Positions 38,097 through 50,323 of a stretch of 64,000 bases of DNA are shown here, piece by piece. Position numbers and translations under genes: made by a program. The notes beneath the pieces were generated by a model. That model searched no databases and was not told the DNA's origin. It saw only the letters and a list, made by a program, of their open reading frames with translations. The stretch covers positions 60,305 to 124,304 of the IMG/VR virus record IMGVR_UViG_2974628900_000001. The stretch is one strand, 5' to 3'. Positions within the stretch are counted from its first letter, which is position 1. The number at the start of each line of letters is the position of its first letter. The DNA is from Streptomyces virus StarPlatinum (taxonomy: Duplodnaviria; Heunggongvirae; Uroviricota; Caudoviricetes).

Positions 38097-38121
38097 TACT
38101 TCATGTTTAAGGTGATTTAAC

Positions 38122-38268
38122 ATGTGTGAAATGAACCGGTGGGAGAACGAGGGAGGTAAGACAACTAAGCTTCCTTGCATCTTTCATGGAAAAGAATATA
38201 AAGAACATGACTTCTACTATGGTGATCAATGCCGTAGGTGTGGAGTCTGGAAGGATGAGCAAGATTGA
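38122..38268 (+). CDS. small Cys-containing protein
   Basis: 48 aa, C...CIFH...CRRC. Confidence 0.35.
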   Translation: MCEMNRWENEGGKTTKLPCIFHGKEYKEHDFYYGDQCRRCGVWKDEQD

Positions 38269-38822
38269 AGATTTTTTACGACACCGAATTTTATGAGACT
38301 GGACCGGAGGAGCCTGTTAGGTTCATCAGTCTAGGCGCGGTGCGCGAGGATGGCGAACGACTGTACCTGATCACCAACAACCTCTACGTGCTCAACAGAG
38401 CAAATGAGAATGAGTGGATGAGGGAGAACGTCATCGCCCATTTGCCAGTAAAGCAGACGGACACTGGAAGCCTCGCATGGGACACTCAGCATCCCGACTA
38501 CGCAAGGGTTCTGCCCAACGAGGCGATTGCTGGATTGTGGAGAGATTTCGTCCTGGACTACGACGAGGCACATGAGTTTGACAAGCCCGAGCTGTGGGCC
38601 TACTATGGAGCCTATGACCATGTGGTTGTCAGCCAGCTCTTTGGGCGTATGATTGACTTGCCAGATGGCATGCCGATGTATACAATGGATCTAAAGCAGC
38701 GTTGGCACAACGAGGGAAGACCTCCGCTACCAAAGCAAGACGGTGGAGAGCACAACGCCCTTGACGATGCCTTGTGGAACAAGATAGTATCAGACTATCT
38801 AGACGCTTACGGCGAAAGGTAA
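38265..38822 (+). CDS. DEDDh 3'-5' exonuclease (DnaQ/RNase T-like)
   Basis: Exo I FYDTEF, Exo II YGAYDHVV, Exo III HNALDDA. Confidence 0.75.
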   Translation: MKIFYDTEFYETGPEEPVRFISLGAVREDGERLYLITNNLYVLNRANENEWMRENVIAHLPVKQTDTGSLAWDTQHPDYARVLPNEAIAGLWRDFVLDYDEAHEFDKPELWAYYGAYDHVVVSQLFGRMIDLPDGMPMYTMDLKQRWHNEGRPPLPKQDGGEHNALDDALWNKIVSDYLDAYGER

Positions 38823-38826
38823 TTAA

Positions 38827-39222
38827 ATGGGTGATCGCACCAATGTTGGCGTAGTCATGCGTGGCAGCAATGGACAAGAGAAGCTTGGTATCCTGTGGGT
38901 TTATTCACACTGGGGTCTACCTGGCATTACGGCTTCCATTGCGAAGGCTCTTGACAACGCCAAGGGTCGATGGGATGATGATATGTATGGACAGCGAATC
39001 TTCGTTCAGTCCATCATGGAGGCCGGTGGCATGGAAGGTAGCTCTGAGCTAGGCGGTGGACTAAGCTTTAACTTCATCGCTGACAATGAGCACAAGCTTT
39101 GGGTGGCTGACTTCTACGACCAAACGATGTATCTCTTCCCTGAGTACAGCGGTGGTCTTGACACACCCGAGCCTCTTGTGGCAACATCATTTCAGAACTT
39201 CGTCACTAAGTATCTTAAGTGA
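38827..39222 (+). CDS. hypothetical protein
   Basis: 131-aa ORF. Confidence 0.45.
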   Translation: MGDRTNVGVVMRGSNGQEKLGILWVYSHWGLPGITASIAKALDNAKGRWDDDMYGQRIFVQSIMEAGGMEGSSELGGGLSFNFIADNEHKLWVADFYDQTMYLFPEYSGGLDTPEPLVATSFQNFVTKYLK

Positions 39223-39243
39223 CGTAGGCCCTTCGGGGCTCTA

Positions 39244-39522
39244 GGGGATGCCTTGGTTTCGACTGGGGTGGATGACTTTAGTTTGCAGCCTGACATTGAG
39301 GAGATGTCATTAAAAAGCCTCAAACCTATAAATGCCAACTCTAACGTTGCATCTGCCTACGCCCTAGCGGCGTGATGGCCGGGCGGCGACTGCCTAGGAA
39401 CAGAAAGTTGCGAATGTTTGGCCCGGTGGGGATAAACACATCGTAGTATCTGCTTGACACATGGCTGTGTATAGACTACTGTTTGAAGCATCAGGACGCG
39501 GGTTCGACTCCCGCCATCTCCA
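39244..39522 (+). ncRNA. ssrA: tmRNA (SsrA), tag peptide (A)NSNVASAYALAA
   Basis: 5' GGGGATGCCTTGGTTTCGACTGGGG and 3' GGACGCGGGTTCGACTCCCGCCATCTCCA parallel E. coli tmRNA ends; G3:U70 in acceptor; internal ORF GCC AAC TCT AAC GTT GCA TCT GCC TAC GCC CTA GCG GCG TGA. Confidence 0.85.
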
Positions 39523-39535
39523 CTTAAGGATCATC

Positions 39536-39850
39536 ATGAACTTGACAGGTCGCTCCACTATGGTAGACTTCGATCTGAGCGAGCAAGACGCTCGAACGAT
39601 TCAGAAGAGCATGCGAACTGGTCCTGTGACTCTCAAGGTTACTAGGATTCAGATCAGCTACACATACGGCGCGGTGCTTGTTGGCCTTGATCGTAACCCT
39701 GGCCCTCACTACAAGGTGAGAGTATCAGGATATCGAATGAAGGCTGGCATGAAGCAACGTGATACTGTTGTTCAGCACAGCTATCTTAACCCTGACCTGC
39801 CAGACTGGCTTGAGCAGATGGTTGTTGACAACGCTCCCAACTGGTACTAG
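39536..39850 (+). CDS. hypothetical protein
   Basis: AAGGA RBS; 104 aa; start placed after tmRNA 3' end. Confidence 0.45.
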   Translation: MNLTGRSTMVDFDLSEQDARTIQKSMRTGPVTLKVTRIQISYTYGAVLVGLDRNPGPHYKVRVSGYRMKAGMKQRDTVVQHSYLNPDLPDWLEQMVVDNAPNWY

Positions 39851-39859
39851 GATGTAAAC

Positions 39860-40084
39860 ATGCCGAAATGGATGCGACTTCCGGGAACGGATAAGGAAGC
39901 CAGCCTTAGTGATAGGGTTGGCTCTGCCTTCGAAAATGGTTATGGCGATGAAGGCCCTTTGGCCAAGGGAATCGTCATTGGAGGATGTGTTTTCCTCCCT
40001 CTCATAGTTACTCTTGGCATCTTTGGTGGTGCTGCGTATGGACTCTGGAGGCTTGCCGAATGGCTCTGGACTATGATAGCCTGA
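39860..40084 (+). CDS. membrane protein
   Basis: 74 aa with C-terminal hydrophobic helices. Confidence 0.45.
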   Translation: MPKWMRLPGTDKEASLSDRVGSAFENGYGDEGPLAKGIVIGGCVFLPLIVTLGIFGGAAYGLWRLAEWLWTMIA

Positions 40085-40132
40085 TGAAGAAGTGGATGGA
40101 CACCATCCGAAAGATGAATCAGAAAGGCTGAC

Positions 40133-40537
40133 ATGCGTACCAAAACAGTTACTAAACTGGTGCGTAATCTCACGCAAAAAGAATACAGTCAGTGCAAGTC
40201 TCTGAACTTCCGCTATGACGGCTGTATGATGTATGATCTCCCCTGGTCAAAGAAGGCTTTTCCAAAGCAGGCCAGAGTGGTTATGATCAAAGACGCTGAG
40301 ACTGATATGCTTATCGCTTGGTGTCTCGCATATCCGAACAATGCGGGTGACAACTTCATCACTCAGTATTACACTAGAGTGAAGTTCCGCAACATGGGTT
40401 ATGGAAGCCGTCTGATTTACCATGTCAGAAAGTTCGCTCCAAGCCCTGTAGTAATGCCGCACGATCCAAATAGTCGTGCGTTTTTCCGTAAGCACGAAGA
40501 CAAGATCACTGTCCGTGCTTCTCACTCTCTCTACTGA
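40133..40537 (+). CDS. putative GNAT-family acetyltransferase
   Basis: RNMGYGSRLIYHVRKF resembles GNAT motif A; weak. Confidence 0.35.
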   Translation: MRTKTVTKLVRNLTQKEYSQCKSLNFRYDGCMMYDLPWSKKAFPKQARVVMIKDAETDMLIAWCLAYPNNAGDNFITQYYTRVKFRNMGYGSRLIYHVRKFAPSPVVMPHDPNSRAFFRKHEDKITVRASHSLY

Positions 40538-40547
40538 AAGGCCCAAA

Positions 40548-40763
40548 ATGGCTAAGCGTGTCAAGGCTCTTGAGCTTCGTTCCACCGACCGTGACAACTT
40601 CTTCAACCTGTACGTTTCTGGTTCTTGGAAGGGTCTCGTTGAGACCAGCAAGGTCGGCCGTAAGACCAACTTCCGTATCCACGGTGCAAAGCGTAACTTC
40701 GAGGACTTCACTGGCACCAAGAAGGACTTTGAGGCTTTCGCCAAGGAGCGCTTCTCCAAGTGA
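40548..40763 (+). CDS. hypothetical basic protein
   Basis: 71 aa from internal ATG; overlapping minus-strand ORFs judged spurious. Confidence 0.4.
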   Translation: MAKRVKALELRSTDRDNFFNLYVSGSWKGLVETSKVGRKTNFRIHGAKRNFEDFTGTKKDFEAFAKERFSK

Positions 40764-40767
40764 GGTA

Positions 40768-41016
40768 ATGATGTTTGACAGGGTTGTCAAGAGTTACGAC
40801 TACTCCTGCTACGCTTGTCCGGTAATTGTAGATGGCTTCCTTAAGTCTGGGGAGCCATTCTATTTCCGACTTCGTCACGGTGTCGCCAGGCTCGTTCTGG
40901 AGGACACAAAACGCGCGGCGGTGATGGAAGCAATTGACGGTCTAGACGGCACATGTAGCAATGAGCAGTTCAAGCAAATGTTCAATCGCCTGTACCTTGA
41001 AATCGTAATGGGCTGA
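40768..41016 (+). CDS. hypothetical Cys-containing protein
   Basis: GAGGTAA RBS; 82 aa (MMFDRVVKSYDYSCYACPV...). Confidence 0.4.
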   Translation: MMFDRVVKSYDYSCYACPVIVDGFLKSGEPFYFRLRHGVARLVLEDTKRAAVMEAIDGLDGTCSNEQFKQMFNRLYLEIVMG

Positions 41017-41027
41017 AAGGCCCTAAT

Positions 41028-41086
41028 GCTACGTAGCTTAATATGGCAAAGCAACTCTTGGCCAGAGTGTCATGTGGTTCGAACCC
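41028..41086 (+). ncRNA. degenerate tRNA-like element
   Basis: Acceptor gctacgt/tcgtagc and D-arm GCTTAATATGGCAAAGC present, but weak T-stem and 4-bp anticodon stem. Confidence 0.3.
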
Positions 41087-41176
41087 CATCGTAGCAGCAA
41101 TATCAATTAGACTTCATAATCACTCTCCTGTTATACTATAGATGCCTAATTCATCAGAGGCAGGAGGATTGATTAT

Positions 41177-41617
41177 ATGGATTTTGTAGAACATTTGGGC
41201 TACCAATACCTCACTGACCTTCTGACGGAAATCCGCGTAGGCCAGCAGGGATTGGAGGAACGAATGGCAGACCTAACAACTGAGGTTGCAAACCTCCGTG
41301 AGGCAGTAAGCGGTGTTAGCGCACGTGTAGATGCTCTTGTTGGTCCACTAACGGACGCCGTTAGAGAGGCCCAGGATGCACTAGCAGCCGAGCGTCAGGC
41401 AGCAGCAGATCTTGCAGCAGCCGAAGACGCAGAGGACGTAGCGCAGAACCAGGCTCTTGCAGATGCGCAGGCTGCAACAGATGCCGCACTTGCAAACGCT
41501 CAGACAGCAGCCGACGAGATCAGTGCAGAAACTGCACGTCTTAACGAGGTTGCAAAGCCAGCCGAGGAGCCTACTCCAGAGCCAGAGCAGCCATCTGGTC
41601 CAGTAGTAGAAGGTTGA
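41177..41617 (+). CDS. Ala/Glu-rich coiled-coil protein
   Basis: 146 aa, low complexity AAADLAAAEDAEDVAQNQALADAQAA; RBS partly sequestered by CTCCTG/CAGGAG inverted repeat. Confidence 0.5.
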   Translation: MDFVEHLGYQYLTDLLTEIRVGQQGLEERMADLTTEVANLREAVSGVSARVDALVGPLTDAVREAQDALAAERQAAADLAAAEDAEDVAQNQALADAQAATDAALANAQTAADEISAETARLNEVAKPAEEPTPEPEQPSGPVVEG

Positions 41618-41673
41618 TAAAAAAGGAGTTGACAGCCCCTATAGGTCTCTAGTAGACTAGCTGTCATAAGCAT

Positions 41674-41801
41674 GGCCCCAAAGAGCCACTAGCGGTCTAC
41701 GGTAGCGCTGCCGCCCGTTAGACTCCATGCGGCACCAGGCTTGTGCAACCGACGGGTTGAGAACATAAGCAAAGGGGAGGGTTCGAATCCCTCTGGGGTC
41801 C
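41674..41801 (+). ncRNA. long tRNA-like element (about 128 nt)
   Basis: TTGACA-18-TAGACT promoter upstream; ggcccca/tggggtc acceptor pairing and canonical T-arm gagggTTCGAATccctc separated by about 95 nt. Confidence 0.3.
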
Positions 41802-41872
41802 ACTATGATTATAAACTATGACCCTGGTTAAGTAGCTTGACAAGCTACACTACAACAACTAGGATGTGATGT

Positions 41873-42169
41873 ATGGCTACCATCAAGGAACGCGGAACCG
41901 ACAAGTGGAACATGAGCAAGGCGACTCGTCGCAGTGCCCGCAACTTTGTCGAGCGTGAGAAGGTTGGCAAGGCTAAGAAGAAGAACACTCGCAAGTGGTG
42001 CAAGGGTAAGGAAGGGCGTAAGCACACTCTCGCTCTTTACAACAAGTACACCTGGCGTCACGGATACAAGTGCTTCAAGTGCAGCAAGGAATTCTACTTC
42101 CCCATCAACCGCGAGGACTTTGACTTCGTTGAGCGCAAGTGGGAAGATGACTACAACTGGGGCAACTGA
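41873..42169 (+). CDS. basic Cys-containing protein
   Basis: TTGACA-17-TAGGAT promoter; 98 aa, Lys/Arg-rich, CKGK...CFKC. Confidence 0.45.
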   Translation: MATIKERGTDKWNMSKATRRSARNFVEREKVGKAKKKNTRKWCKGKEGRKHTLALYNKYTWRHGYKCFKCSKEFYFPINREDFDFVERKWEDDYNWGN

Positions 42170-42354
42170 TGCAGCTTAAGATGTACGCTATTGCCTGTGA
42201 CCAAGCAGAAGCTATCAAAAACTGCTACACAGGCAAGTACACAAATCAACCATTCTGGCCAGAGCATAAGACTCTGGTACCATATCTGCAAAGGGCCAGG
42301 GAGGAAAACCCTGACCTTCCACTAAAGATCTTTGTCATTAAGGTGAGTGGATAA
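42169..42354 (+). CDS. hypothetical protein
   Basis: 61-aa ORF (ATGA overlap). Confidence 0.4.
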   Translation: MQLKMYAIACDQAEAIKNCYTGKYTNQPFWPEHKTLVPYLQRAREENPDLPLKIFVIKVSG

Positions 42355-42356
42355 AA

Positions 42357-42617
42357 TTGGCCGGTAACAAGAACAGCCGTAAGAAGTGGCTTTGTCTTGA
42401 CTGTGGTGTTGACACTGGCAAGATTGGCGAACACTTCTTTCTGATCAACGATGTCTGGTCCTTGACAGGACTTGGACACAAGGGTATGCTCTGTGTAGAG
42501 CACGTTGAGAAGCGCATCGGCAGGCGTCTTGTTCCGGCCGATTTTGCTTCTGTATGGATTAACGGACCGCGAGGCGGCGTCAAGAGCCAGCGCCTTGCTA
42601 ATCGATTGGGATTGTAA
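42357..42617 (+). CDS. zinc-finger protein
   Basis: 86 aa, CLDCG...CVEH. Confidence 0.45.
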   Translation: MAGNKNSRKKWLCLDCGVDTGKIGEHFFLINDVWSLTGLGHKGMLCVEHVEKRIGRRLVPADFASVWINGPRGGVKSQRLANRLGL

Positions 42618-42829
42618 TGGTGTGGAATTGGGTTGAGGCAGCGCCAGAAGCTGTCGAATACTACAAAAAGAAGAAGGCTGCACATGTTGCCGACGTTGGT
42701 GACATTGAGGTCTGGCGAGACGCCTACGGTTATTCTCGTCTGATCAAGGAGTCTGACGGCAAGATCTACATCAGCGGCCGAGACTTCTTCACGATCAAGG
42801 ACGCCAAAGATGCAGCCGCTGCGTGTTAA
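42617..42829 (+). CDS. hypothetical protein
   Basis: 70-aa ORF. Confidence 0.4.
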   Translation: MVWNWVEAAPEAVEYYKKKKAAHVADVGDIEVWRDAYGYSRLIKESDGKIYISGRDFFTIKDAKDAAAAC

Positions 42830-43001
42830 TGTTGGCGATATAGTCTGTGACTGTCGCTACCTTCACCTAAAGGTCTTGAAGATCTGGCCCGATGGTGATA
42901 CAGTATCTCTAGAAGATGGATCAAGTTGCTCCATCAGACATTGCTTGGATGCTGCTGATCATGAATGGCAGCATCCGGAAAACTACTAATCTGGAGGACC
43001 G

Positions 43002-44078
43002 ATGAAGTTCACCAAGATCTTCTCACAGGAGCTGCTTGACGAGATGATCTCAGAGGGCTATGTCCGGGCGCAATTTCATCCGGTTCTGCCTCTCAAGATT
43101 CTCAACTACTCCGAGAAGACTCAGTTCGCTGGAAAGTGGAATGACTGCACGCTTAACTGTCGTGGATTGATCGTTGACCTTGACGGCAACTTGATTGCTC
43201 GTCCTTTCATGAAGTTCTTCAACTTGGGTGACTCTCAGTCTGCACAACTTGACTGGGATGCTCCGGTTGAGGTTACGGACAAGAAGGACGGCTCAATGGG
43301 GGTTCTGTACTCATACGGCGGTGATTGGGCAATTGCGACTCGCGGCTCATTCATGTCAGACCAGGCGATTCACGGAACTCGTGTGCTAAATGAGCGTTAC
43401 AGCCACATCCAGTTTGTCTCAGACTACACTTTCATCTTCGAGATCGTTTACCCTGAGAACAGGATTGTTCTGGACTACGGTTCAATGGACGACCTGATTC
43501 TTCTGGGTGCGGTTCACAAGGAGTACGGTTACGTCTGCGGCCCTCTGGAGGCTCAGGCAATTGTTAATTGGGACGGGCCGGTGACGGAGGTCTTCAATTA
43601 CAACTCATTGCGTGAGGCGGCTGGAGCGCAGTACAGGAAGAACGCAGAGGGTTTCGTAGTCCGCTCTGGCAACAAGATGGTCAAGATCAAGCAGGCAGAT
43701 TACGTTGAGCTGCACCGCATGATCTCCATGCTTTCAGAGCGTTCTGTATGGAGCCAGCTCACCGAGGGCAAGACGATTCTTGAGATTTGTGAGGCACTGC
43801 CTGACGAGTTTCACGGGTTTGTCAAGGACGTTGGTGGCAAGCTTCTCACTGACTACGAGCGCATCGAGGTCGAGGTTTACGGTATCTACCAGAACCTTCT
43901 GACTTCTTTGGGCGAGGGTTTCACGCGACGTGACTTCGCAATGGCCGCAAACCGAATCGATCTCTACAGGTCTCACATGTTCAACCTGCTTGACGGGAAG
44001 AGCATCAATGAGCTAATCTGGAAGCAGATCAGGCCGGAGGCCAAGCGAGAGGACGTACACCCTACCAATGCAGGCTAA
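43002..44078 (+). CDS. rnlA: RNA ligase 1 (T4 RnlA-like) tRNA repair ligase
   Basis: NCRGLIVDLDGNLIARPFMKFFNLGD matches T4 Rnl1 ECRGIMFEMDGE..RPMEKFFNLNE; motif I KxDGS (TDKKDGSMG); FEIVYPENRIVLDY; motif V KMVKIKQADY. Confidence 0.85.
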   Translation: MKFTKIFSQELLDEMISEGYVRAQFHPVLPLKILNYSEKTQFAGKWNDCTLNCRGLIVDLDGNLIARPFMKFFNLGDSQSAQLDWDAPVEVTDKKDGSMGVLYSYGGDWAIATRGSFMSDQAIHGTRVLNERYSHIQFVSDYTFIFEIVYPENRIVLDYGSMDDLILLGAVHKEYGYVCGPLEAQAIVNWDGPVTEVFNYNSLREAAGAQYRKNAEGFVVRSGNKMVKIKQADYVELHRMISMLSERSVWSQLTEGKTILEICEALPDEFHGFVKDVGGKLLTDYERIEVEVYGIYQNLLTSLGEGFTRRDFAMAANRIDLYRSHMFNLLDGKSINELIWKQIRPEAKREDVHPTNAG

Positions 44079-44358
44079 CGAGGAGTGGCGCAAAGATCCT
44101 CACCGTAGGTATTTGGCCGAGCACCTTTGTAAGAAGCGTGCTCGGCTGTACCTAATGCTGATCGAGGATCTTGAGCGCGCCGACAGATGTCTCCAAATGA
44201 TTCGAGAGACAAAAGAAGAAATACCAAACGCCAATAATGGATATCGTGCAATGAGCTTCTATGCCGATATCGAAGAGGCCCGGCGTAAGTATAACCACTA
44301 CAACAATCCTACAGAAACCCTAATCGGCAACATGGCTGCCTTTGGGGAAGGAGCATAA
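44068..44358 (+). CDS. hypothetical protein
   Basis: 96-aa ORF. Confidence 0.4.
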   Translation: MQANEEWRKDPHRRYLAEHLCKKRARLYLMLIEDLERADRCLQMIRETKEEIPNANNGYRAMSFYADIEEARRKYNHYNNPTETLIGNMAAFGEGA

Positions 44359-44416
44359 TGAACGAGTTTATTGCCAAGCATCCTGTAGCATTCGCTGCCG
44401 CGTTCTTCGTGATGGG

Positions 44417-44623
44417 ATGGATTATCGGGTGAACGAGGCTCGTAGGAAGGCTCAAGCAGCAGTTGCCAAGGGTAAGTGTGTAAGTCTTGCTGGTCTTCCA
44501 ATAGGTTGCGGAGCGATAGTCTCAGAAAACGATTTCCGAGACGATCTTTCCAGGAGAGAATACAAGATTTCTGGTCTCTGCCAGTCTTGTCAAGACAGAT
44601 TTGAGGCGATGTTTGATGAGTGA
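44417..44623 (+). CDS. zinc-ribbon protein
   Basis: 68 aa from internal ATG; CVSLAGLPIGCG...CQSC. Confidence 0.35.
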   Translation: MDYRVNEARRKAQAAVAKGKCVSLAGLPIGCGAIVSENDFRDDLSRREYKISGLCQSCQDRFEAMFDE

Positions 44624-44826
44624 GAAGGACTTTGTCTGCATGGATTGCGGAACTCCGTTTCCGAATCATGCGCCGACGTGCCCTTGGCACCCTGACAACA
44701 TAGGCAAGCGTTGATTGCACTGACAGCAGGTCTCGTTATCGGGACCTGCGTCTTTGTTTACGGACTCATAGATGGGTTGACAGACCGAGGCAGACGCGAT
44801 ACTGTAGTTACAGATCGAACGAAGGA

Positions 44827-45723
44827 GTGAAGATGCAGCTTCTCATCCTCCGGGGCGTTCCCGGTTGTGGTAAGAGCACCTGGGCACATGACGTGTGGCT
44901 GAGGGAAAACCCGAATGGTGTTCGAGTCAATCGTGATGACATTCGTATGCAGCTCTTTGGCCGGGAGACCGGAGTAGACGAGGAGCTTGTCACTCGAATT
45001 GAGCACGGAATGGTTGATGGGGCTCTGGCAAAGGGCTACTCAGTCATTGTCGATGACACGAACATCCGACACAAGTACATCAAGGAATTCGTAAAGATCG
45101 GTCAGCGTCACGGCGCTAGCGTTGCTGTAAAGCAGTTCGACGTTCCTCTTGAGACGGCAATTGCTCGAAACAAGGCTCGTGCCGAGTCCGGTGGTCGAGA
45201 TGTTCCTGAGTCTGTGATTCGTAGAATGCATCAGTCCCTTAAGTCTAGTGGAGTCTTCACTGATTTCCACACAGACGTTACGGCCGTTCGTCCTTACGAG
45301 CGTCCCGAAGGTGCAGAGAAGGTTTACCTCTTTGACATCGACGGAACTCTTGCTGAGATGAACAATCGTGATCCCTTCAATTGGAGGGAAGTTGGGACGG
45401 ATGATCCACGACGACAGGTGATCCTTACTGCTCAGGCTCACGCCAAGGCGGGATACAAGATCATCGTTATGAGTGGACGAGACGGCTCATGTCGCAATGG
45501 AACAATCGCTTGGCTGGATCTGTACGACATTCCTTTCTCAGAATTGCACATGCGTGCTGAGGGGGATATGCGTAAGGACTCCATCGTCAAGCAAGAGTTG
45601 TTCGATGAGCACATTCGAGACATCTACGATGTTGTGGCTGTCTACGATGATCGTCAGCAGGTTGTTGACATGTGGCGTGCGATGGGCATAGACTGTTTCC
45701 AGGTAGCACCCGGAAACTTCTGA
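44827..45723 (+). CDS. pnk: polynucleotide kinase / 3'-phosphatase (T4 Pnk-like)
   Basis: P-loop GVPGCGKSTWA, RVNRDDIR, HAD phosphatase motif LFDIDGTLAEMN, C-terminal QVVDMWRAMGIDCFQVAPGNF matches T4 [21 protein letters not shown]. Confidence 0.9.
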   Translation: MKMQLLILRGVPGCGKSTWAHDVWLRENPNGVRVNRDDIRMQLFGRETGVDEELVTRIEHGMVDGALAKGYSVIVDDTNIRHKYIKEFVKIGQRHGASVAVKQFDVPLETAIARNKARAESGGRDVPESVIRRMHQSLKSSGVFTDFHTDVTAVRPYERPEGAEKVYLFDIDGTLAEMNNRDPFNWREVGTDDPRRQVILTAQAHAKAGYKIIVMSGRDGSCRNGTIAWLDLYDIPFSELHMRAEGDMRKDSIVKQELFDEHIRDIYDVVAVYDDRQQVVDMWRAMGIDCFQVAPGNF

Positions 45724-45726
45724 CAA

Positions 45727-45750
45727 AAGGGAGCTTCGGCTCCCTTTTGT
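45727..45750 (+). terminator. rho-independent terminator after pnk
   Basis: GGGAGC-TTCG-GCTCCC then TTTTG. Confidence 0.75.
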
Positions 45751-45764
45751 TGTTGGGAGAACAA

Positions 45765-45953
45765 ATGGAAATCATAGGAATAATCACAGTCACTATTCTT
45801 TTTGGATGGCTGGCAGTGATGGGAATCGCCATCAACATGATTCCAGCAGAAATGAAGATGTATCAAAGGCTGCTAGCATTGGCATGGAGTCTCGGATGGA
45901 TCTATCTCTGGTGGATATTTGTTGGTCTTAGAATTGAGGTGAGCTTCAACTGA
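45765..45953 (+). CDS. small membrane protein
   Basis: 62 aa, two hydrophobic helices. Confidence 0.45.
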   Translation: MEIIGIITVTILFGWLAVMGIAINMIPAEMKMYQRLLALAWSLGWIYLWWIFVGLRIEVSFN

Positions 45954-46159
45954 TGTTGCCAAACCCTGAGAAGTACGTTAAGGTCTATACATATCAGACC
46001 AGAAGTTGGTCTGTCCTTGGGACAGATGGTTATCGTCCCGAGATTATTAAGTCTGGCTTCAAGAGTCAAGAGCTTGCAGAAGCTTGGAAGACAGTGTATC
46101 TTGAGAACTACGTCAGGCAAAACATGTTGCGCGGCGACGAAGAGTACGAACTGTCTTGA
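45953..46159 (+). CDS. hypothetical protein
   Basis: 68-aa ORF. Confidence 0.4.
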   Translation: MLPNPEKYVKVYTYQTRSWSVLGTDGYRPEIIKSGFKSQELAEAWKTVYLENYVRQNMLRGDEEYELS

Positions 46160-46213
46160 CAGCAACACTCCAGCACGATAGAGTAGTACCAACAACAACG
46201 ACGAAGGGTCGAA

Positions 46214-46636
46214 ATGAACACTAAGCTTATCCCGTCAGTCATCGCTGGTGCGGTTGTCAGTGCTGTGATTCTGACTGGCTGCAAGGAAGCCAGCAATGAG
46301 TTTAAGCAGGACTGCAAGCAGCGCGGTGGCAAGGTTGTCCGTGAGGATGACTTTGAAGGCGAATACCTCGGTATGGCTCCAATGGCTGTGAGCGTTCCCA
46401 AGCCTCCGCCTGCTACAAAGCCTGCTGCGCCGAAGGCACCGAAGGTTGACAAGCTTCCGAAGAATAGCGCCCCGAAGCCTGCTAAGCCTGCGGCTCCTAA
46501 GACACAGGCTCCGAACGGAAACGACCTGGCCTTTGGTGGCACCACAAAGCCGAAGAAGAACAAGAAGTCCAAGAAGGACGACAACGACTTCCTCTGTGTG
46601 AAGAACGGCGAAGTGCTGTTCGAAGAGGACGAGTAA
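46214..46636 (+). CDS. lipoprotein with Pro/Ala/Lys-rich repeats
   Basis: TTGACA-17-TAGAGTAGT promoter; signal + lipobox LTGC; PKPPPATKPAAPKAPKVDKLPKNSAPKPAKPAAPK. Confidence 0.55.
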   Translation: MNTKLIPSVIAGAVVSAVILTGCKEASNEFKQDCKQRGGKVVREDDFEGEYLGMAPMAVSVPKPPPATKPAAPKAPKVDKLPKNSAPKPAKPAAPKTQAPNGNDLAFGGTTKPKKNKKSKKDDNDFLCVKNGEVLFEEDE

Positions 46637-46662
46637 GATCAACTACTAACGAAAGCTGATCA

Positions 46663-47061
46663 ATGGGACTAATGGATTTCCTCACCGGAGTTGGCAATCC
46701 TCTAAGTGCGACTTCACGCGCTGGACGGAAGCTAGAGAATGAAGCGCTTCGGTGGGCGTGTAATCGATGCAAGCTAAATACTCCGTATTACGTCCGAGCT
46801 GAGATTGCTGATAAGCATAAGGCTACTTATGCTGGCACCAATCCTGACGGATATGTTTACATGGAGTATGTCTTCACCAAGAAGAGTCTGGTTCACAAGA
46901 TTCCAATGACTGATTATGGAACTCGTGCAAATCAGATTTACTACTACTACAATGGTGAAATCACCGATAGGCGTCCGAAGAACTATCTGACAAAGAAGCA
47001 GCTCCGGGAGCTTGAGGCTCGCATCATGAAGGAGTGTCAGGAAGGTTTCACCTTCGACTGA
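46663..47061 (+). CDS. hypothetical protein
   Basis: 132-aa ORF. Confidence 0.45.
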   Translation: MGLMDFLTGVGNPLSATSRAGRKLENEALRWACNRCKLNTPYYVRAEIADKHKATYAGTNPDGYVYMEYVFTKKSLVHKIPMTDYGTRANQIYYYYNGEITDRRPKNYLTKKQLRELEARIMKECQEGFTFD

Positions 47062-47222
47062 TGGCAGAGTACACAAAGGGCGATAAGGTTGAATTTATCC
47101 GAGGTCGCCTAGATGGTAAAAGGGGTAAGGTCAAGTTCGTCACCGCTCATGGCAAGTTGCTTGTTGACTTGAATGAGGGCGGAGATGTATACTGTAACCC
47201 AGAAGATGTTAAGCCTGCGTAA
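47061..47222 (+). CDS. small KOW/SH3-like protein (family member)
   Basis: 53 aa, KGDKVEFIRGRLDGKRGKVKFVTAHG. Confidence 0.45.
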   Translation: MAEYTKGDKVEFIRGRLDGKRGKVKFVTAHGKLLVDLNEGGDVYCNPEDVKPA

Positions 47223-47231
47223 GCAGGCCCC

Positions 47232-47313
47232 GCGCCCATGGTGGAATGGCAGACACACTAGGCTGAGACCCTAGGCTCGAATGAGCGTCCGAGTTCGATT
47301 CTCGGTGGGCGTA
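47232..47313 (+). tRNA. tRNA-Leu (anticodon GAG), type II
   Basis: Acceptor gcgccca/tgggcgt, anticodon stem ctagg/cctag, loop ctGAGac, 14-nt variable arm; GCCTGC-gtaa-GCAGGC hairpin upstream. Confidence 0.75.
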
Positions 47314-47314
47314 C

Positions 47315-47518
47315 ATGGCAAAATACAGAGTAGGCCAGCAAATTGTTGTAACACAATTTGTTCAGAAGGGCGTTGAGTATGCCGGACGCCGAGGCTTTGT
47401 TGAGATTGTAGAGAGCCGAGGACGATATACGGTCCTCCTTTATGAAACAGAGTACAATGGGATCAAAGTCCCTGAATGCACTATCGATGTCAGGGAAAAC
47501 AACATCCGAAAAGCTTAA
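47315..47518 (+). CDS. small KOW/SH3-like protein (family member)
   Basis: ATG 2 nt after tRNA-Leu; 67 aa, VGQQIVVTQFVQKGVEYAGRRGFV. Confidence 0.45.
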   Translation: MAKYRVGQQIVVTQFVQKGVEYAGRRGFVEIVESRGRYTVLLYETEYNGIKVPECTIDVRENNIRKA

Positions 47519-47652
47519 GGAATCAAATGAGCTGGTGGGCAATCGTTCTCATTACTCTTGGCTGTGTAGCATCAGTCGGGTTTGGTTTGTTTGTATGGGC
47601 AATGATCCGTGTGGCTAAGTCTCCTGGTAACTGGGGACTCTGAAAGGATAAA

Positions 47653-47874
47653 ATGAGCACTGATTTCAAGAAGTTCGTAGAGGCTGGAAAGATTCTCGGC
47701 ACGATGGTTCTTGATGTTGCCGAGCTTGTTCTTCTTGCTCGAAAGGCTGACACCGCGCAGCGTAAGGCGGCTGAGGCGTACATGAGCGCTTACGAAGAGC
47801 AAAAGGGTAAGGTCAAGAGCAAGGAAGACTGGACCGTCTTCTACAACGGCGTAAAGAAGCGTCTGACGGTTTGA
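47653..47874 (+). CDS. hypothetical protein
   Basis: 73-aa ORF. Confidence 0.4.
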   Translation: MSTDFKKFVEAGKILGTMVLDVAELVLLARKADTAQRKAAEAYMSAYEEQKGKVKSKEDWTVFYNGVKKRLTV

Positions 47875-47900
47875 ACAATGGGAGTGGCAACACTCCACCA

Positions 47901-47971
47901 ACCCGCTTAGTTCAATGGTAGAGCGCCTGCTCGACACGCAGGGGACGGGAGTTCGATTCTCCCAGTGGGTA
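47901..47971 (+). tRNA. tRNA-Val (anticodon GAC)
   Basis: Acceptor acccgct/agtgggt, anticodon stem cctgc/gcagg, loop tcGACac (C33 unusual); GGAGTG-gcaa-CACTCC hairpin upstream. Confidence 0.6.
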
Positions 47972-47993
47972 CTCCATCGACCGAAGGGTTTCA

Positions 47994-48431
47994 ATGAATC
48001 TCATTCGAGCCGAGCGCCTTGCGCGCGATCTTATGTGGGAATTCGACCTTTTCACTAGAGGTTGGGATTTCGGTTGGAATCGTATGGTAAAGACATACGG
48101 AACAACTTATCACATGCAGAAGATGATTAAGCTGTCAAAGACCTGCACTCCGAATCTTACAGAAGATCAGGTTGACAACGTCATTCGACATGAAATTGCA
48201 CACGCTCTGGTTGGGCCGGGGCATGGTCACAATGCAATTTGGCGGGCAAAGGCAATCGAGATTGGTTGTACAGGAAATACCTGTGAAAACTACACTCCTG
48301 CTACGCCAAAGTGGAAGGCTGTTTGTCCTGATGGACATACCGCTGGAACACGTTACCGACGACCGGCACGAGGTAGAATCCTTGTTTGTGCCGTTCACCG
48401 CAAGCAAGTCGATTGGGTAGCCAATGGATAA
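47994..48431 (+). CDS. SprT-like zinc metalloprotease domain protein
   Basis: HExxH in VIRHEIAHALV, SprT-like YGTTYHMQKMIKLS, C-terminal Cys/His cluster. Confidence 0.65.
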   Translation: MNLIRAERLARDLMWEFDLFTRGWDFGWNRMVKTYGTTYHMQKMIKLSKTCTPNLTEDQVDNVIRHEIAHALVGPGHGHNAIWRAKAIEIGCTGNTCENYTPATPKWKAVCPDGHTAGTRYRRPARGRILVCAVHRKQVDWVANG

Positions 48432-48624
48432 ACATGAAGTAAGAGTTGCCATGATTGTTGCGTCTGTGTTCATCGCACTGTTTGCGACAATTGGAATTGC
48501 TGTCAACTACAATGATTACCTAAAGAATCAGACCATCCAGAAGTGTATTGCTTCTGACAAGGTCTGGGGCGAGGGCTCCTGTGTTGACAACGTAGAAGAT
48601 CTCAAGTATATTGATAATGACTGA
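48424..48624 (+). CDS. small membrane protein
   Basis: 66 aa, N-terminal TM helix, Cys pair. Confidence 0.4.
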   Translation: MDKHEVRVAMIVASVFIALFATIGIAVNYNDYLKNQTIQKCIASDKVWGEGSCVDNVEDLKYIDND

Positions 48625-48644
48625 TCAAAGGCCGCAAGGCCGAT

Positions 48645-48718
48645 GGCCCTGTAGCAGAATGGCATATGCGGCGGTCTCAAACACCGCGTCAATGTGGGTT
48701 CGAGTCCCATCAGGGCTA
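48645..48718 (+). tRNA. tRNA, class I body with anticodon CAA (Leu-like anticodon)
   Basis: Acceptor ggccctg/cagggct, perfect anticodon stem gcggt/accgc, loop ctCAAac, 6-nt variable loop; GGCC-gcaa-GGCC hairpin upstream. Confidence 0.55.
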
Positions 48719-48719
48719 C

Positions 48720-48947
48720 ATGGAATATACACTAGGTAAGGCACCGAAGGGTTACGAGTGGTCTCTTGAGCATGCAGATGGAGATCCGCTATTCACTGGT
48801 CGCAAAGGAACAACTTACGGAATCATTGTGACCAAGAATGGCAAGTTTGTAGAACGTCGAGGGGTATTTGTTCCAGCGGAGAGCGAGAAGGACACACAGT
48901 CCTTTATCACCGCAATGGAAGAAAGCCTTCGTCAGTCTCTTAAGTGA
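48720..48947 (+). CDS. small KOW/SH3-like protein (family member)
   Basis: ATG 2 nt after tRNA; 75 aa, GRKGTTYGIIVTKNGKFVERRGV. Confidence 0.45.
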   Translation: MEYTLGKAPKGYEWSLEHADGDPLFTGRKGTTYGIIVTKNGKFVERRGVFVPAESEKDTQSFITAMEESLRQSLK

Positions 48948-48953
48948 GACATT

Positions 48954-49044
48954 GGAAGTGTGGCTGAGTCCGGTTTAAGGCGCATCACTGCTAATGATGT
49001 GAGTGAATTAAGTAGCTCCGCAGGTTCGAATCCTGTCACTTCCG
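48954..49044 (+). tRNA. tRNA-Ser (anticodon GCT), type II
   Basis: Perfect acceptor ggaagtg/cacttcc, anticodon stem catca/tgatg, loop ctGCTaa, long variable arm. Confidence 0.8.
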
Positions 49045-49062
49045 CAATGATATAATCTTCAC

Positions 49063-49356
49063 ATGGAGATTAATCGTCATAGAAAAGAGGGGAGCTTTGT
49101 TAGGCGTCACAGTCTTTCACTAGCTCTCCTCTTTGTTTTCGTTTTGCAGTCTATTATCGTATGGTTCTCAGGTTATGAAGACTGGGCCGGTGATCAGATG
49201 GTTCACAACCAACCTGTTGACATCTGGCCCGGTTACCTGATACATTGGATCTATGAAATGGCAGTCAGCCTAGTAGCTGACACATATGGCGCACTCGTGC
49301 TGGTTCTCTTTGCTAAATGGTTTTATGAACAGGGTAGCCCAGAGAGCGAGGATTAA
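49063..49356 (+). CDS. membrane protein
   Basis: 97 aa, hydrophobic helices. Confidence 0.45.
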   Translation: MEINRHRKEGSFVRRHSLSLALLFVFVLQSIIVWFSGYEDWAGDQMVHNQPVDIWPGYLIHWIYEMAVSLVADTYGALVLVLFAKWFYEQGSPESED

Positions 49357-49470
49357 TGTTTTATTTGAACTGTAGTCGCTGTGGTCCCCACTATAGCGAC
49401 GACGACTACATGGAAGACGGAGTATGCGCCCCGTGCATCCTTGTAGAGATTACTGAGGAGTTGGGACTAT

Positions 49471-49677
49471 ATGAGAAAGACGAAGTGGATTAAGCCTGGC
49501 AATCGTGTGATGGACCGGGCTTACATGTATGACAAGAGTGGCAATGTCCACACTGGTGAAGCTCTATTGCTAGCGCTACTCCTGCATGCCAAGGGAAAGA
49601 CTCGGCGCGGCGAGAAGGAGCTTCTAGAAGTAAGCAAGATTATGAAGGACCCGAATCTACCAAAGGACAAGAAGTGA
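49471..49677 (+). CDS. hypothetical protein
   Basis: 68-aa ORF. Confidence 0.4.
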   Translation: MRKTKWIKPGNRVMDRAYMYDKSGNVHTGEALLLALLLHAKGKTRRGEKELLEVSKIMKDPNLPKDKK

Positions 49678-50057
49678 TTCAGAGCGAACTTCCCGTAGAG
49701 GTTACCCGTCTTGAGTGGCATTACATCGACATGGAAGAGTTCATTCAGAAGCTTTACGGTCAGAAGTGGGAAGGCGGGGCCGCTCTAGGCTTCCCTGCTC
49801 AGGACACCTATCATGACTTTGACGTCGATGGTGGAAGTGTGTATGATGGAATCAATGACGAAGGCAACGAGGTCAATGCTCTTTGGATGGATGAGGGGCA
49901 TACCTACGATCAGGCCAAGGCTGTGATTGAACAGTTTAAGGTTGAGGGAATGCCCAGGGAAGAATATGCTAATCCTGGTGCTGAACTGATGCTCAATTGG
50001 CTTTGCCATGAAGGTCACATTCCTGCGGGCAAGTACCGCATTATTGTTTGGTGGTGA
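49674..50057 (+). CDS. hypothetical protein (tandem paralogue 1, C-terminus IPAGKYRIIVWW)
   Basis: 127 aa; C-terminal motif shared with next ORF. Confidence 0.45.
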   Translation: MIQSELPVEVTRLEWHYIDMEEFIQKLYGQKWEGGAALGFPAQDTYHDFDVDGGSVYDGINDEGNEVNALWMDEGHTYDQAKAVIEQFKVEGMPREEYANPGAELMLNWLCHEGHIPAGKYRIIVWW

Positions 50058-50323
50058 CAATGTTTCATCCGAAGCGCGAAGTGTATTACACCATTGACGC
50101 ATTCGATCTGAATGAGCTTGTCGAAGGTGAGTTCGGATTTGCTTGGGATTTCGTTGCTGCGGAAGAGTGCAGCAATGACAGTGCCCATGTGATTCATCCT
50201 GATTCAAGTGGTCTTAGTGAAGACGACGAGATTCAGTACGTTCCGGCTCGAACCATCATTGGTGAACTTGTGAAGCGAGAGATTCTTCCTTCTGGTAAGT
50301 ATCTCGTGGAGGTGTGCTGGTAA
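50048..50323 (+). CDS. hypothetical protein (tandem paralogue 2, C-terminus LPSGKYLVEVCW)
   Basis: 91 aa. Confidence 0.45.
   Translation: MVVTMFHPKREVYYTIDAFDLNELVEGEFGFAWDFVAAEECSNDSAHVIHPDSSGLSEDDEIQYVPARTIIGELVKREILPSGKYLVEVCW

What the first reader, a model, noticed from the sequence alone, without database searches (positions are those of the whole stretch)
43002..45723. T4-type tRNA repair pair (RnlA-like ligase + Pnk) embedded in a roughly 40-tRNA arsenal
Both proteins align motif by motif with T4 Rnl1 and T4 polynucleotide kinase/3'-phosphatase. In T4 this pair reseals tRNA-Lys cleaved by the host anticodon nuclease PrrC. This genome also carries at least four tRNA-Lys genes (CTT x3 bodies, TTT). 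Together this suggests a layered counter-defence against anticodon nucleases.
Basis: established knowledge. Interest (0 to 1): 0.6.

Follow-up and report, generated by a model that had tools for sequence, protein, structure and literature searches.

The report
Phage RNA ligase plus kinase-phosphatase pair
A Streptomyces phage carries a T4-like pair of RNA-repair enzymes (one mends broken RNA ends, one joins them) among its 43 tRNA genes; both genes are real but already annotated in GenBank, and their proposed role against host tRNA-cutting defences is plausible, already published as an idea, and untested.

Summary
The window is 100% identical to Streptomyces phage StarPlatinum (MH576965.1, cluster BE). 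The two ORFs are its gp211, already annotated "RNA ligase", and gp214, already annotated "polynucleotide kinase".

Both identifications hold:
- gp214 aligns over its full length with T4 Pnkp (1e-44) and keeps all kinase and phosphatase residues checked.
- ARAGORN finds 42 tRNAs, including four tRNA-Lys, plus a tmRNA. GenBank annotates 43 tRNAs.

Corrections: the kinase more likely starts at ATG 44833, not GTG 44827. The two genes are separated by two small non-conserved ORFs and a terminator-like hairpin.

[quoted passage not shown] The "layered counter-defence" reading is only plausible, and it has already been proposed for BE phages and jumbo phages. The three tRNA-Lys(CTT) genes match the phage's own most-used codon (AAG). 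Their anticodon loops are canonical. No host anticodon nuclease could be examined.

Verdict: already known, low interest. The more novel material is incidental: unannotated Y-like RNAs, several conserved non-canonical tRNA-like RNAs, and near-total avoidance of TCG codons.

The parts
43002..44078 (+). gp211, an Rnl1-family ATP-dependent RNA ligase (358 aa). The predicted lysine nucleophile is K94 in the KKDGS motif.
44068..44358 (+). gp212, a small ORF of 96 aa with unknown function. It overlaps the ligase stop by 11 nt.
   Evidence: No Pfam or PHROG hit. No similarity to the ORF at the same position in the BK-cluster phage Beuffert.
44429..44623 (+). gp213, a small Cys-rich ORF of 64 aa with unknown function.
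   Evidence: PHROG 19722, function unknown, 1e-18. Not conserved in Beuffert.
44726..44749 (+). A terminator-like hairpin (10 bp, 7 G-C pairs) followed by GTCTTTGTTT, lying between gp213 and the kinase gene.
   Evidence: Consensus scan and sequence. Function is inferred only.
44777..44805 (+). A weak promoter-like site, TTGACA-17-TACTGT, followed by the RBS GAAGGAG (44821-44827) ahead of ATG 44833.
   Evidence: Read directly from the sequence. It falls below the scan tool's threshold, so it is tentative.
44833..45723 (+). gp214, a T4-type bifunctional polynucleotide 5'-kinase / 3'-phosphatase (296 aa). It has an N-terminal P-loop kinase domain and a C-terminal DxDxT HAD phosphatase domain.
   Evidence: Pfam HAD_PNKP plus AAA_33. 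PHROG 505, 1.3e-103. PDB 4xrp and 1ltq over the full length. Catalytic residues mapped. Residue roles taken from PMC3592404. GenBank annotation.
45725..45750 (+). A hairpin, AAAAGGGAGCTTCGGCTCCCTTTTGT, directly after the kinase stop codon. It is terminator-like.
   Evidence: Seen as the 3' end of a sub-threshold Rfam alignment. Inferred only.
12563..56467 (+). A dispersed array of tRNA genes covering all 20 amino acids: 42 found by ARAGORN, 43 annotated in GenBank. The ligase and kinase genes lie inside it; the nearest tRNAs are Ala at 41027 and Leu at 47232.
   Evidence: ARAGORN, Rfam and GenBank.
29175..29248 (+). tRNA-Lys(CTT), copy 1.
33824..33897 (+). tRNA-Lys(CTT), copy 2.
34022..34096 (+). 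tRNA-Lys(CTT), copy 3.
34276..34351 (+). tRNA-Lys(TTT).
39244..39523 (+). tmRNA with tag peptide ANSNVASAYALAA. It belongs to the same translation-maintenance gene set.
   Evidence: ARAGORN. Rfam RF00023, 92.5 bits.
21639..23267 (+). gp133, a Ro60/Rsr-like RNA-binding protein with TROVE and vWA domains. It is an RNA quality-control partner in published RNA-repair schemes.
   Evidence: Pfam vWA_Ro60 3.8e-61 and TROVE 5.6e-35. NCBIfam Rsr, 453 bits, which is below the equivalog cut-off.

Best explanation
gp214 and gp211 form a T4-type RNA 'heal and seal' pathway.

Inferred from conserved active sites and from T4 biochemistry:
- gp214 (Pnkp) opens and removes a 2',3'-cyclic or 3'-phosphate through a covalent Asp168-phosphate intermediate.
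- gp214 also phosphorylates the 5'-OH end, using Asp35 as general base and K14 and R116 on the ATP gamma-phosphate.
- gp211 (Rnl1) self-adenylylates on K94, transfers AMP to the 5'-phosphate, and joins it to the 3'-OH.

The most likely substrates are tRNAs, host or phage, cut in the anticodon loop by metal-independent ribonucleases. Such nucleases could come from host abortive-infection systems, toxin-antitoxin modules or competing elements.

The pair sits inside a wider phage gene set that keeps translation running: 43 tRNAs for all 20 amino acids, a tmRNA, a Ro60-like protein with Y-like RNAs, and a Pol-beta nucleotidyltransferase.

The ligase appears to lie in an operon running gp206 to gp213. 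The kinase appears to be a separate short unit bracketed by hairpins. This transcription layout is inferred, not shown.
For: Enzyme identity.

Residue roles: PMC3592404, which also states that T4 Pnkp repairs broken tRNAs in vivo.

Conserved linkage and order (ligase, then small ORFs, then kinase-phosphatase):
- T6.
- All 46 close BE relatives.
- The BK-cluster phage Beuffert, which is in a different subfamily and also places the pair among tRNAs and a tmRNA.
- A Bacillus phage in which the ligase's neighbour is a kinase fused to an HD phosphohydrolase instead of a HAD domain. That domain swap argues for selection on the function.

Context genes: tmRNA, Ro60 and metallophosphoesterase.

Published precedent for tRNAs plus RNA repair acting as counter-defence: PMC7824862 and PMC5764925.
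Against: - No substrate or host nuclease was identified.
- The ligase scores far below NCBIfam's T4 RnlA equivalog cut-off (72.9 against 242 bits), so tRNA specificity cannot be assumed from T4.
- The C-terminal domain gives T4 Rnl1 its tRNA preference (from my own knowledge). Here it is only weakly similar in sequence: phmmer aligned residues 49-246 only.
- The tRNA set has a simpler explanation in codon supply.
- The Lys anticodon loops are canonical.
- A terminator-like hairpin separates the two genes, so co-expression is not guaranteed.
Confidence: 0.6

Rival explanations
1. The enzymes are what they seem, but the tRNA set is unrelated to them. On this view the tRNAs exist to supply codons for a 49-50% GC phage translating in a high-GC host. 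The ligase and Pnkp are a general RNA or DNA end-repair module, so there is no 'layered' system.
For: - Window GC is 0.47-0.51, and BE phages are reported to be about 20 GC points below their hosts (PMC5764925).
- GC3 of the window's CDS is 0.51, with heavy use of A/T-ending codons.
- The three Lys(CTT) genes match the phage's most used codon.
- Pnkp homologues occur in 2886 phage records against 1457 for the ligase. Mycobacterium accounts for 305 of the Pnkp records and is not among the ten most frequent genera for the ligase. So Pnkp can act without an Rnl1.
Against: - Many of the phage tRNAs read G/C-ending codons that a high-GC host should already supply well, including Lys CTT, Asp GTC, Asn GTT, Ala GGC, Gly GCC and Glu CTC. 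Pure codon compensation does not explain the full set.
- The ligase-kinase linkage is embedded among tRNAs and a tmRNA in two Streptomyces phage subfamilies.
Confidence: 0.3
2. The pair matures the phage's own unusual tRNA-like transcripts. Examples are the 117-nt tRNA-like RNA with an expanded anticodon arm (27786-27902) and the 128-nt four-arm RNA (41674-41801). Fragments left after an endonucleolytic cut would be re-joined, in the manner of Trl1-type tRNA splicing.
For: - After T4 Rnl1, the ligase's nearest structural relatives are fungal tRNA-splicing ligases.
- The long tRNA-like RNAs are conserved in 74-77 BE phages and show compensatory base changes.
- One of them lies 1.2 kb upstream of the ligase, behind a promoter-like site.
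Against: - No splicing endonuclease, recognisable intron boundary or anticodon was found in these RNAs.
- The insertions are conserved structured arms rather than removable spacers.
- The BK phage Beuffert has the same enzyme pair next to ordinary tRNAs.
Confidence: 0.07
3. The ligase has a structural role, like T4 gp63, which promotes tail-fibre attachment. RefSeq and PHROG carry this name over as 'RNA ligase and tail fiber protein attachment catalyst'.
For: Only the name propagated from T4, in PHROG 562 and in the RefSeq copy NC_048721.1.
Against: - BE phages are siphoviruses without T4-type long tail fibres (PMC5764925).
- All ligase catalytic residues are under conservation.
- The gene is linked to Pnkp and sits among tRNA genes rather than beside any gene annotated as a virion structural gene.
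Confidence: 0.02

Closest known systems
Bacteriophage T4 RNA ligase 1 (RnlA, gp63), PDB 2c5u/5tt6/9do4
   Same: - The nucleotidyltransferase fold and motifs are the same: K94 in KxDGS, E147, E216-G217 and K228-x-K230, plus R54, K71 and F73.
- An all-helical C-terminal domain is predicted.
- The gene lies upstream of a Pnkp gene, as in T-even phages.
   Different: - Identity is only about 21-23%.
- T4 K119 is an arginine here.
- The C-terminal domain is hardly alignable by sequence.
- The protein fails NCBIfam's T4 RnlA equivalog cut-off.
- The phage is a siphovirus, so the tail-fibre role is unlikely.
- Substrate preference is unknown.
Bacteriophage T4 polynucleotide kinase-phosphatase (PseT), PDB 1ltq; and Capnocytophaga Pnkp1 of the Pnkp1-Rnl-Hen1 repair complex, PDB 4xrp
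   Same: - Full-length collinear homology, 1.2e-44 to T4 Pnkp and 1.5e-47 to Pnkp1.
- The same two-domain layout.
- All kinase residues (K14, S15, D35, R38, R116) and phosphatase residues (D168, D170, S214, R216, K253, D272, D273) are kept.
   Different: - About 34% identity to T-even Pnkp.
- There is a roughly 10-residue insertion in the linker between the domains.
- No Hen1 methyltransferase partner was seen in the window.
T4 tRNA restriction-repair circuit (host PrrC anticodon nuclease against phage Pnkp plus Rnl1)
   Same: Both phage-side enzymes are present and syntenic. The phage also encodes tRNA-Lys genes.
   Different: - No PrrC, RloC or PARIS counterpart was shown for Streptomyces hosts.
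- The phage carries its own full tRNA set, which T4 does not have for Lys (from my own knowledge).
- The circuit is hypothetical here.
Phage RNA-repair and tRNA-provisioning suites described for jumbo phages (Iyer et al. 2021, PMC7824862)
   Same: The component list is the same: many tRNAs, an Rnl1-type ATP-grasp ligase, a PNK-HAD fusion, a TROVE/Ro protein with a tRNA-like partner RNA, a Pol-beta nucleotidyltransferase and a calcineurin-like phosphoesterase.
   Different: - StarPlatinum is 134 kb, which is not a jumbo phage.
- The nucleotidyltransferase gp111 scores just below the Pfam RlaP threshold (22.2 against 23 bits).

Membership tests
Rnl1 family RNA ligase (Pfam PF09511 RNA_lig_T4_1) | Profile match above the curated domain threshold | tested here: met
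   63 bits against a cut-off of 28.3. The match covers residues 52-234 and the whole 227-position profile.
Rnl1 family RNA ligase (Pfam PF09511 RNA_lig_T4_1) | Covalent nucleotidyltransferase motifs: the motif I lysine (KxDG), and the motif III, IV and V acidic and lysine residues. Also the Rnl1-specific R54, K75 and F77 (T4 numbering; the list of essential residues is from my memory of the Shuman-lab mutagenesis work). | tested here: met
   T4 R54, K75, F77, K99, D101, G102, E159, E227, G228, K240 and K242 map to R54, K71, F73, K94, D96, G97, E147, E216, G217, K228 and K230. T4 K119 maps to R114. Most of these positions are invariant in 39 homologues.
Rnl1 family RNA ligase (Pfam PF09511 RNA_lig_T4_1) | Fold closest to T4 Rnl1 and Trl1-LIG rather than to Rnl2, Rnl3, Rnl5 or DNA ligases | tested here: met
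T4 RnlA equivalog (NCBIfam TIGR02308) | Whole-protein score above the equivalog cut-off | tested here: not met
   72.9 bits against a cut-off of 242.25. The alignment spans residues 45-328 and profile positions 43-339 of 373. The protein is a homologue, but not an equivalog by this criterion.
T4 RnlA equivalog (NCBIfam TIGR02308) | A C-terminal helical domain that confers preference for tRNA anticodon-loop breaks | tested here: inconclusive
   A helical C-terminal domain is predicted with high confidence at residues 232-342. It is covered by the Foldseek and TIGR02308 alignments. Sequence similarity is weak, and specificity cannot be computed.
T4-type bifunctional Pnkp | An N-terminal P-loop 5'-kinase fused to a C-terminal DxDxT (HAD) 3'-phosphatase | tested here: met
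   AAA_33 covers residues 5-139 and HAD_PNKP covers residues 165-298. The alignments to 1ltq and 4xrp are full length.
T4-type bifunctional Pnkp | Catalytic residues: Lys15, Ser16, Asp35, Arg38 and Arg126 for the kinase; Asp165, Asp167, Ser211, Arg213, Lys258, Asp277 and Asp278 for the phosphatase | tested here: met
   All are conserved. They map to K14, S15, D35, R38 and R116, and to D168, D170, S214, R216, K253, D272 and D273. The roles of Asp35, Lys15, Arg126, Asp165, Asp167, Ser211, Lys258 and Asp278 come from PMC3592404.
Anticodon-nuclease counter-defence system (T4 PrrC paradigm) | Ligase and Pnkp co-encoded by the phage | tested here: met
   Both genes lie within 2.7 kb on the same strand. 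The same order is seen in T6 and in Beuffert.
Anticodon-nuclease counter-defence system (T4 PrrC paradigm) | The host encodes an anticodon nuclease that the phage triggers | not testable with these tools
   No host genome or text-searchable host annotation was available. The DefenseFinder supplement of PMC10482375 is truncated before any entry I could assign to Streptomyces.
Anticodon-nuclease counter-defence system (T4 PrrC paradigm) | Cleaved tRNA is re-joined during infection, and repair mutants are restricted | not testable with these tools
   This needs experiments.
Phage tRNA evasion by anticodon-loop mutation (van den Berg et al. 2023, PMC10264068) | Phage tRNA anticodon loops differ from the loop that is targeted | tested here: inconclusive
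   All four tRNA-Lys genes have the loop C-U-(C/U)-U-U-A-A, which is the standard bacterial Lys loop from my own knowledge.

The most novel reading that the evidence does not exclude
In BE-cluster phages, the Rnl1-Pnkp pair may be one arm of a largely self-contained system for translation and RNA maintenance.

That system would also include conserved, mostly unannotated RNAs:
- three Y-like RNAs;
- a 128-nt four-arm tRNA-like RNA just upstream of the ligase operon;
- a 117-nt tRNA-like RNA with an expanded anticodon arm;
- an 81-nt RNA that is only the tRNA-like domain of a tmRNA;
- a tRNA-Ile(GAU) without a D-arm.

The phage's codon usage is also purged of TCG and TTA.

On this reading the ligase and Pnkp act on these phage RNAs, processing them or regenerating them as nuclease decoys. 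They would not act only on host tRNA-Lys as in T4.
Probability: 0.1. Interest if true: 0.6.

Novelty: already known. Interest (0 to 1): 0.2.

Why it matters
As it stands, the finding confirms existing GenBank annotation and a hypothesis already in print, so it adds little.

It would matter if experiments showed that the repair pair and the tRNA set jointly defeat tRNA-cleaving defences in Streptomyces. That would extend the T4/PrrC paradigm to Actinobacteria and to siphoviruses. It would also help explain why 130-kb Streptomyces phages carry the largest tRNA sets among actinophages.

The incidental RNAs and the TCG-codon avoidance are better leads for new biology than the flagged pair itself.

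Tried and rejected
- **Small ORFs as partners.** I tested whether the two small ORFs between the ligase and Pnkp are conserved partners. They show no similarity to the ORFs at the same position in the BK phage Beuffert. I treat them as filler.
- **Tail-fibre role.** I rejected the role implied by the RefSeq and PHROG name, because the phage is a siphovirus and the gene sits among RNA genes.
- **Host defence inventory.** I tried to obtain it from the supplement of PMC10482375. The file contains RloC and PARIS entries but is truncated and coded by strain, and I could assign none to Streptomyces. The main text has no tRNA-nuclease discussion.
- **The 41.7-kb tRNA-like RNA as a YrlA-type Y RNA.** Rejected. 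Its topology is the normal tRNA order, not the permuted YrlA order. A possible downstream acceptor hairpin is not conserved. ARAGORN and the Rfam tRNA model do not call it.
- **The "promoter" upstream of that RNA.** It is also part of an inverted repeat, so calling it a promoter is uncertain.
- **Literature on TCG-codon avoidance in Streptomyces phages.** Nothing was found.
- **Rfam at gathering thresholds.** It gives no Y RNA family in the window. Only a sub-threshold match to a nematode stem-bulge RNA family appears.
Full report
**Identity of the window.** A megablast of 42900-45800 hits Streptomyces phage StarPlatinum (MH576965.1 / NC_048721.1) at 100% identity over the full length. Forty-four further Streptomyces phage records match at 60-95%. 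Window position equals record position minus 60304. StarPlatinum is a 133,886-bp siphovirus of actinophage cluster BE (Stanwilliamsviridae, Karimacvirus), isolated on S. griseus ATCC 10137. Window GC is 0.47-0.51.

- The ORF 43002-44078 (+, 358 aa) is GenBank gp211, "RNA ligase".
- The ORF ending at 45723 is gp214, "polynucleotide kinase".
- GenBank starts gp214 at ATG 44833. This start follows an RBS, GAAGGAG, at 44821-44827.
- ARAGORN finds 42 tRNAs and a tmRNA. GenBank lists 43 tRNAs. All 20 amino acids are covered.
- The four tRNA-Lys genes (CTT at 29175, 33824 and 34022; TTT at 34276) are real, and the three CTT genes have distinct bodies.

**The ligase.**
- Pfam RNA_lig_T4_1 scores 63 bits against a cut-off of 28.3. 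PHROG 562 gives 1.9e-82 over residues 3-350. phmmer finds only T4 Rnl1 in the PDB (6.6e-14, residues 49-246).
- I aligned it to T6 RnlA, which has the same length as T4 Rnl1 and is used here with T4 numbering. T4 R54, K75, F77, K99, D101, G102, E159, E227, G228, K240 and K242 map to identical residues. T4 K119 maps to R114. The list of essential T4 residues is from my memory of the Shuman-lab mutagenesis work.
- These positions are invariant or nearly so in 39 diverse homologues. They were drawn from 5320 database proteins with E <= 1e-5.
- An AlphaFold model built from that alignment has pLDDT 92 and a helical C-terminal domain at residues 232-342.
- NCBIfam's T4 RnlA equivalog model matches residues 45-328 but at 72.9 bits, against a cut-off of 242.
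- So it is an Rnl1-family enzyme, but not a close T4 RnlA orthologue. Its substrate preference cannot be read from sequence.

**The kinase-phosphatase.**
- Pfam HAD_PNKP (7e-52) plus AAA_33 (1e-27). PHROG 505, 1.3e-103.
- Full-length alignments to Pnkp1 (4xrp, 1.5e-47) and to T4 Pnkp (1ltq, 1.2e-44).
- All mapped catalytic residues are kept: K14, S15, D35, R38 and R116 for the kinase; D168, D170, S214, R216, K253, D272 and D273 for the phosphatase.

**Local anatomy.**
- The ligase stop overlaps gp212 (44068-44358). gp213 (44429-44623) follows.
- Next come a 10-bp G+C-rich hairpin with a T-rich tail (44726-44749), a weak TTGACA-17-TACTGT site, the RBS, and the kinase gene.
- A further hairpin (45725-45750) follows the kinase stop codon.
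- A TTGACA-17-TAGGAT site at 41837-41865 precedes gp206, and genes gp206 to gp213 are tightly packed.
- The inferred layout is a gp206-gp213 operon containing the ligase, plus a separate kinase unit. This is not shown.
- gp212 and gp213 have no informative family. They are not conserved at the same position in the BK-cluster phage Beuffert.

**Conservation of the pairing.**
- All 46 close relatives carry both genes.
- By tblastn, the ligase occurs in 1457 phage records (133 Streptomyces) and the kinase in 2886 (140 Streptomyces; 305 Mycobacterium).
- T6 has rnlA, then alc and small ORFs, then pseT, in the same order.
- Beuffert, in a different subfamily, has ligase, two small ORFs and Pnkp, among tRNAs and a tmRNA.
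- Bacillus phage Chewbecca has a "tRNA ligase" followed directly by a kinase fused to an HD phosphohydrolase.
- The linkage of the two functions is therefore old and widespread, which supports a joint heal-and-seal role.

The mechanism by analogy with T4 is sound, but the "layered counter-defence" claim is not tested.
- Across 144 annotated CDS in the window (15,951 codons), AAG makes up 93% of Lys codons and is the single most used codon (1044). Three Lys(CTT) genes therefore fit plain demand.
- All four Lys anticodon loops are the canonical C-U-N-U-U-A-A. There is no hint of loop-based evasion.
- In the other direction, many phage tRNAs read G/C-ending codons that a high-GC host should already supply. 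Pure codon compensation is therefore also incomplete.
- I could not examine host genomes for PrrC, RloC or PARIS.
- The idea itself is already in print. [quoted passage not shown] Iyer et al. describe tRNAs supplemented by Rnl1 or RtcB ligases, PNK-HAD, RlaP and TROVE proteins as a counter to attacks on translation (PMC7824862). PMC10264068 cites the T4 ligase case.

**Wider context in the window.**
- gp133 (21639-23267) is a Ro60/Rsr homologue with TROVE and vWA domains.
- gp111 (14433-14954) is a Pol-beta nucleotidyltransferase. It scores just under the Pfam RlaP threshold, 22.2 against 23 bits.
- gp239 (51605-52375) is a calcineurin-like phosphoesterase.
- Together with the tmRNA, this matches the published phage RNA-repair suite.

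**Verdict.** Novelty is "already known": the genes are annotated in this very record and the concept is published. Interest is low, about 0.2. Confidence is about 0.95 in the enzyme identities and about 0.6 in tRNA-break repair as the biological role.

**Incidental findings, which are more novel than the flagged pair.**
1. **Y-like RNAs.** The unannotated gap 21050-21267 upstream of Ro60 holds two tandem Y-like RNAs.
   - They share the motif GGG(U/C)CGAAUG...CGGUUAUC, which fits the YrlA GNCGAAN0-1G motif of PMC4201824.
   - One contains a perfect T-arm.
   - Rfam gives a sub-threshold hit (32.1 bits against a gathering score of 38) to a nematode sRNA family, ceN72-3_ceN74-2, which I recall belongs to the stem-bulge RNAs regarded as Y RNA homologues.
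   - A third copy lies at about 14271-14432, directly upstream of gp111.
2. **A 128-nt tRNA-like RNA at 41674-41801.**
   - It has an acceptor stem, two long arms and a T-arm.
   - It is conserved in 74 BE records.
   - 10 of its 41 predicted pairs show compensatory changes.
   - It has a tandem paralogue in BE1 phages.
3. **A 117-nt tRNA-like RNA at 27786-27902.** It has an expanded, conserved anticodon arm and is found in 77 records.
4. **An 81-nt RNA at 27465-27545.** It is only the tRNA-like domain of a tmRNA, it carries a G3-U70 pair, and it is found in 82 records.
5. **A tRNA-Ile(GAU)-like gene without a D-arm at 14972-15048.** It would fill the only decoding gap in the phage's tRNA set.
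6. **Codon avoidance.** TCG is used in frame 3 times, against 361 and 240 occurrences in the other two frames. TTA shows the same pattern: 6 against 234 and 167.

Noticed in passing
window 21050-21267 (+), upstream of the Ro60-like gp133 (21639-23267): Two tandem unannotated Y-like RNAs share the motif GGG(U/C)CGAAUG-N-CGGUUAUC, which fits the published YrlA GNCGAAN0-1G motif. Copy 1 (about 21054-21165) contains a perfect T-arm, CACGG-TTCGAAT-CCGTG, and so resembles YrlA. Copy 2 (21169-21241) matches the Rfam nematode sRNA family ceN72-3_ceN74-2 at 32.1 bits, E 5.5e-4, which is below that family's gathering score. From memory, that family belongs to the stem-bulge RNAs regarded as Y RNA homologues.
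   Followed up: partly
window about 14271-14432 (+), directly upstream of the nucleotidyltransferase gp111 (14433-14954): A third copy of the Y-like motif, UUGGGUCGAAUGGGACACGGUUAUC, plus a T-arm, ATAGG-TTCGATT-CCTAT. gp111 itself scores 22.2 bits on Pfam RlaP (RNA-repair Pol-beta NTase), against a cut-off of 23.
   Followed up: partly
window 41674-41801 (+), between gp205 and gp206, 1.2 kb upstream of the ligase: A conserved 128-nt tRNA-like RNA. It has an acceptor stem GGCCCCA/TGGGGTC, two long arms, a T-arm and no anticodon loop. It is found in 74 BE phage records. 10 of 41 predicted pairs show compensatory changes. BE1 phages carry a tandem paralogue. Mildred21 annotates the orthologue as a 129-nt 'tRNA-OTHER'. 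ARAGORN and the Rfam tRNA model do not call it.
   Followed up: partly
window 27786-27902 (+): An unannotated 117-nt tRNA-like gene (Rfam tRNA, 33.6 bits). Its acceptor stem, D-arm and T-arm are normal, but it has about 58 nt where about 13 nt of the anticodon hairpin are expected. Conserved blocks (GAA / AGUA, reminiscent of a sarcin-ricin-type motif) flank a hairpin of variable length. It is conserved in 77 BE records. Mildred21 calls its orthologue a 107-nt tRNA-Tyr.
   Followed up: partly
window 27465-27545 (+): An 81-nt RNA that matches only the two ends of the Rfam tmRNA model (33-41.6 bits against a gathering score of 47). It is a stand-alone tmRNA-like tRNA-like domain with a G3-U70 pair in its acceptor stem and no mRNA-like part. 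It is conserved and unannotated in 82 BE records.
   Followed up: partly
window 14972-15048 (+): An unannotated tRNA-like gene (Rfam tRNA, 30.3 bits against a gathering score of 29). Its anticodon loop is CUGAUAA (GAU, Ile). It has no D-arm and carries an 18-nt extra variable region. It would supply the only missing decoder: ATC plus ATT make up 93% of Ile codons, and no other tRNA-Ile(GAT) was found. Homologous sequence is found in 80 Streptomyces phage records, at 80-99% identity in nearly all.
   Followed up: partly
all 144 annotated + strand CDS in window 1978-61304: The serine codon TCG is almost absent in frame: 3 of 835 Ser codons, and 3 in frame against 361 and 240 in the other two frames. 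This is as extreme as TTA (6 against 234 and 167). Other NCG codons are used normally. The phage has no tRNA with anticodon CGA or TAA. No literature on this was found.
   Followed up: partly
window 54131-54186 (+): A short minihelix-like element: GGCCGG ... T-arm (TGGGG-TTCGAAT-CCCTA) ... CCGGCC. It is not annotated.
   Followed up: no
window 41629-41658, 41837-41865, 42462-42490, 45665-45694, 46156-46184, 47164-47193 (+): Six sites match the scan's sigma-70 consensus at 10 of 12 positions: five TTGACA and one TTGACT, each followed by 17-18 nt and a TAGACT-, TAGGAT-, TAGAGT-, TATGCT- or TATACT-type hexamer. Several resemble what I recall as the Streptomyces vegetative promoter consensus (TTGACN ... 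TAGAPuT). In all, 9 promoter-like sites were found against 4.8 +/- 2.4 expected. The first site is also part of an inverted repeat.
   Followed up: no
window 34790-35584 (+), gp180: A protein annotated as hypothetical has a vWA-TerF-like domain (Pfam 4.1e-22) and sits inside the tRNA array.
   Followed up: no
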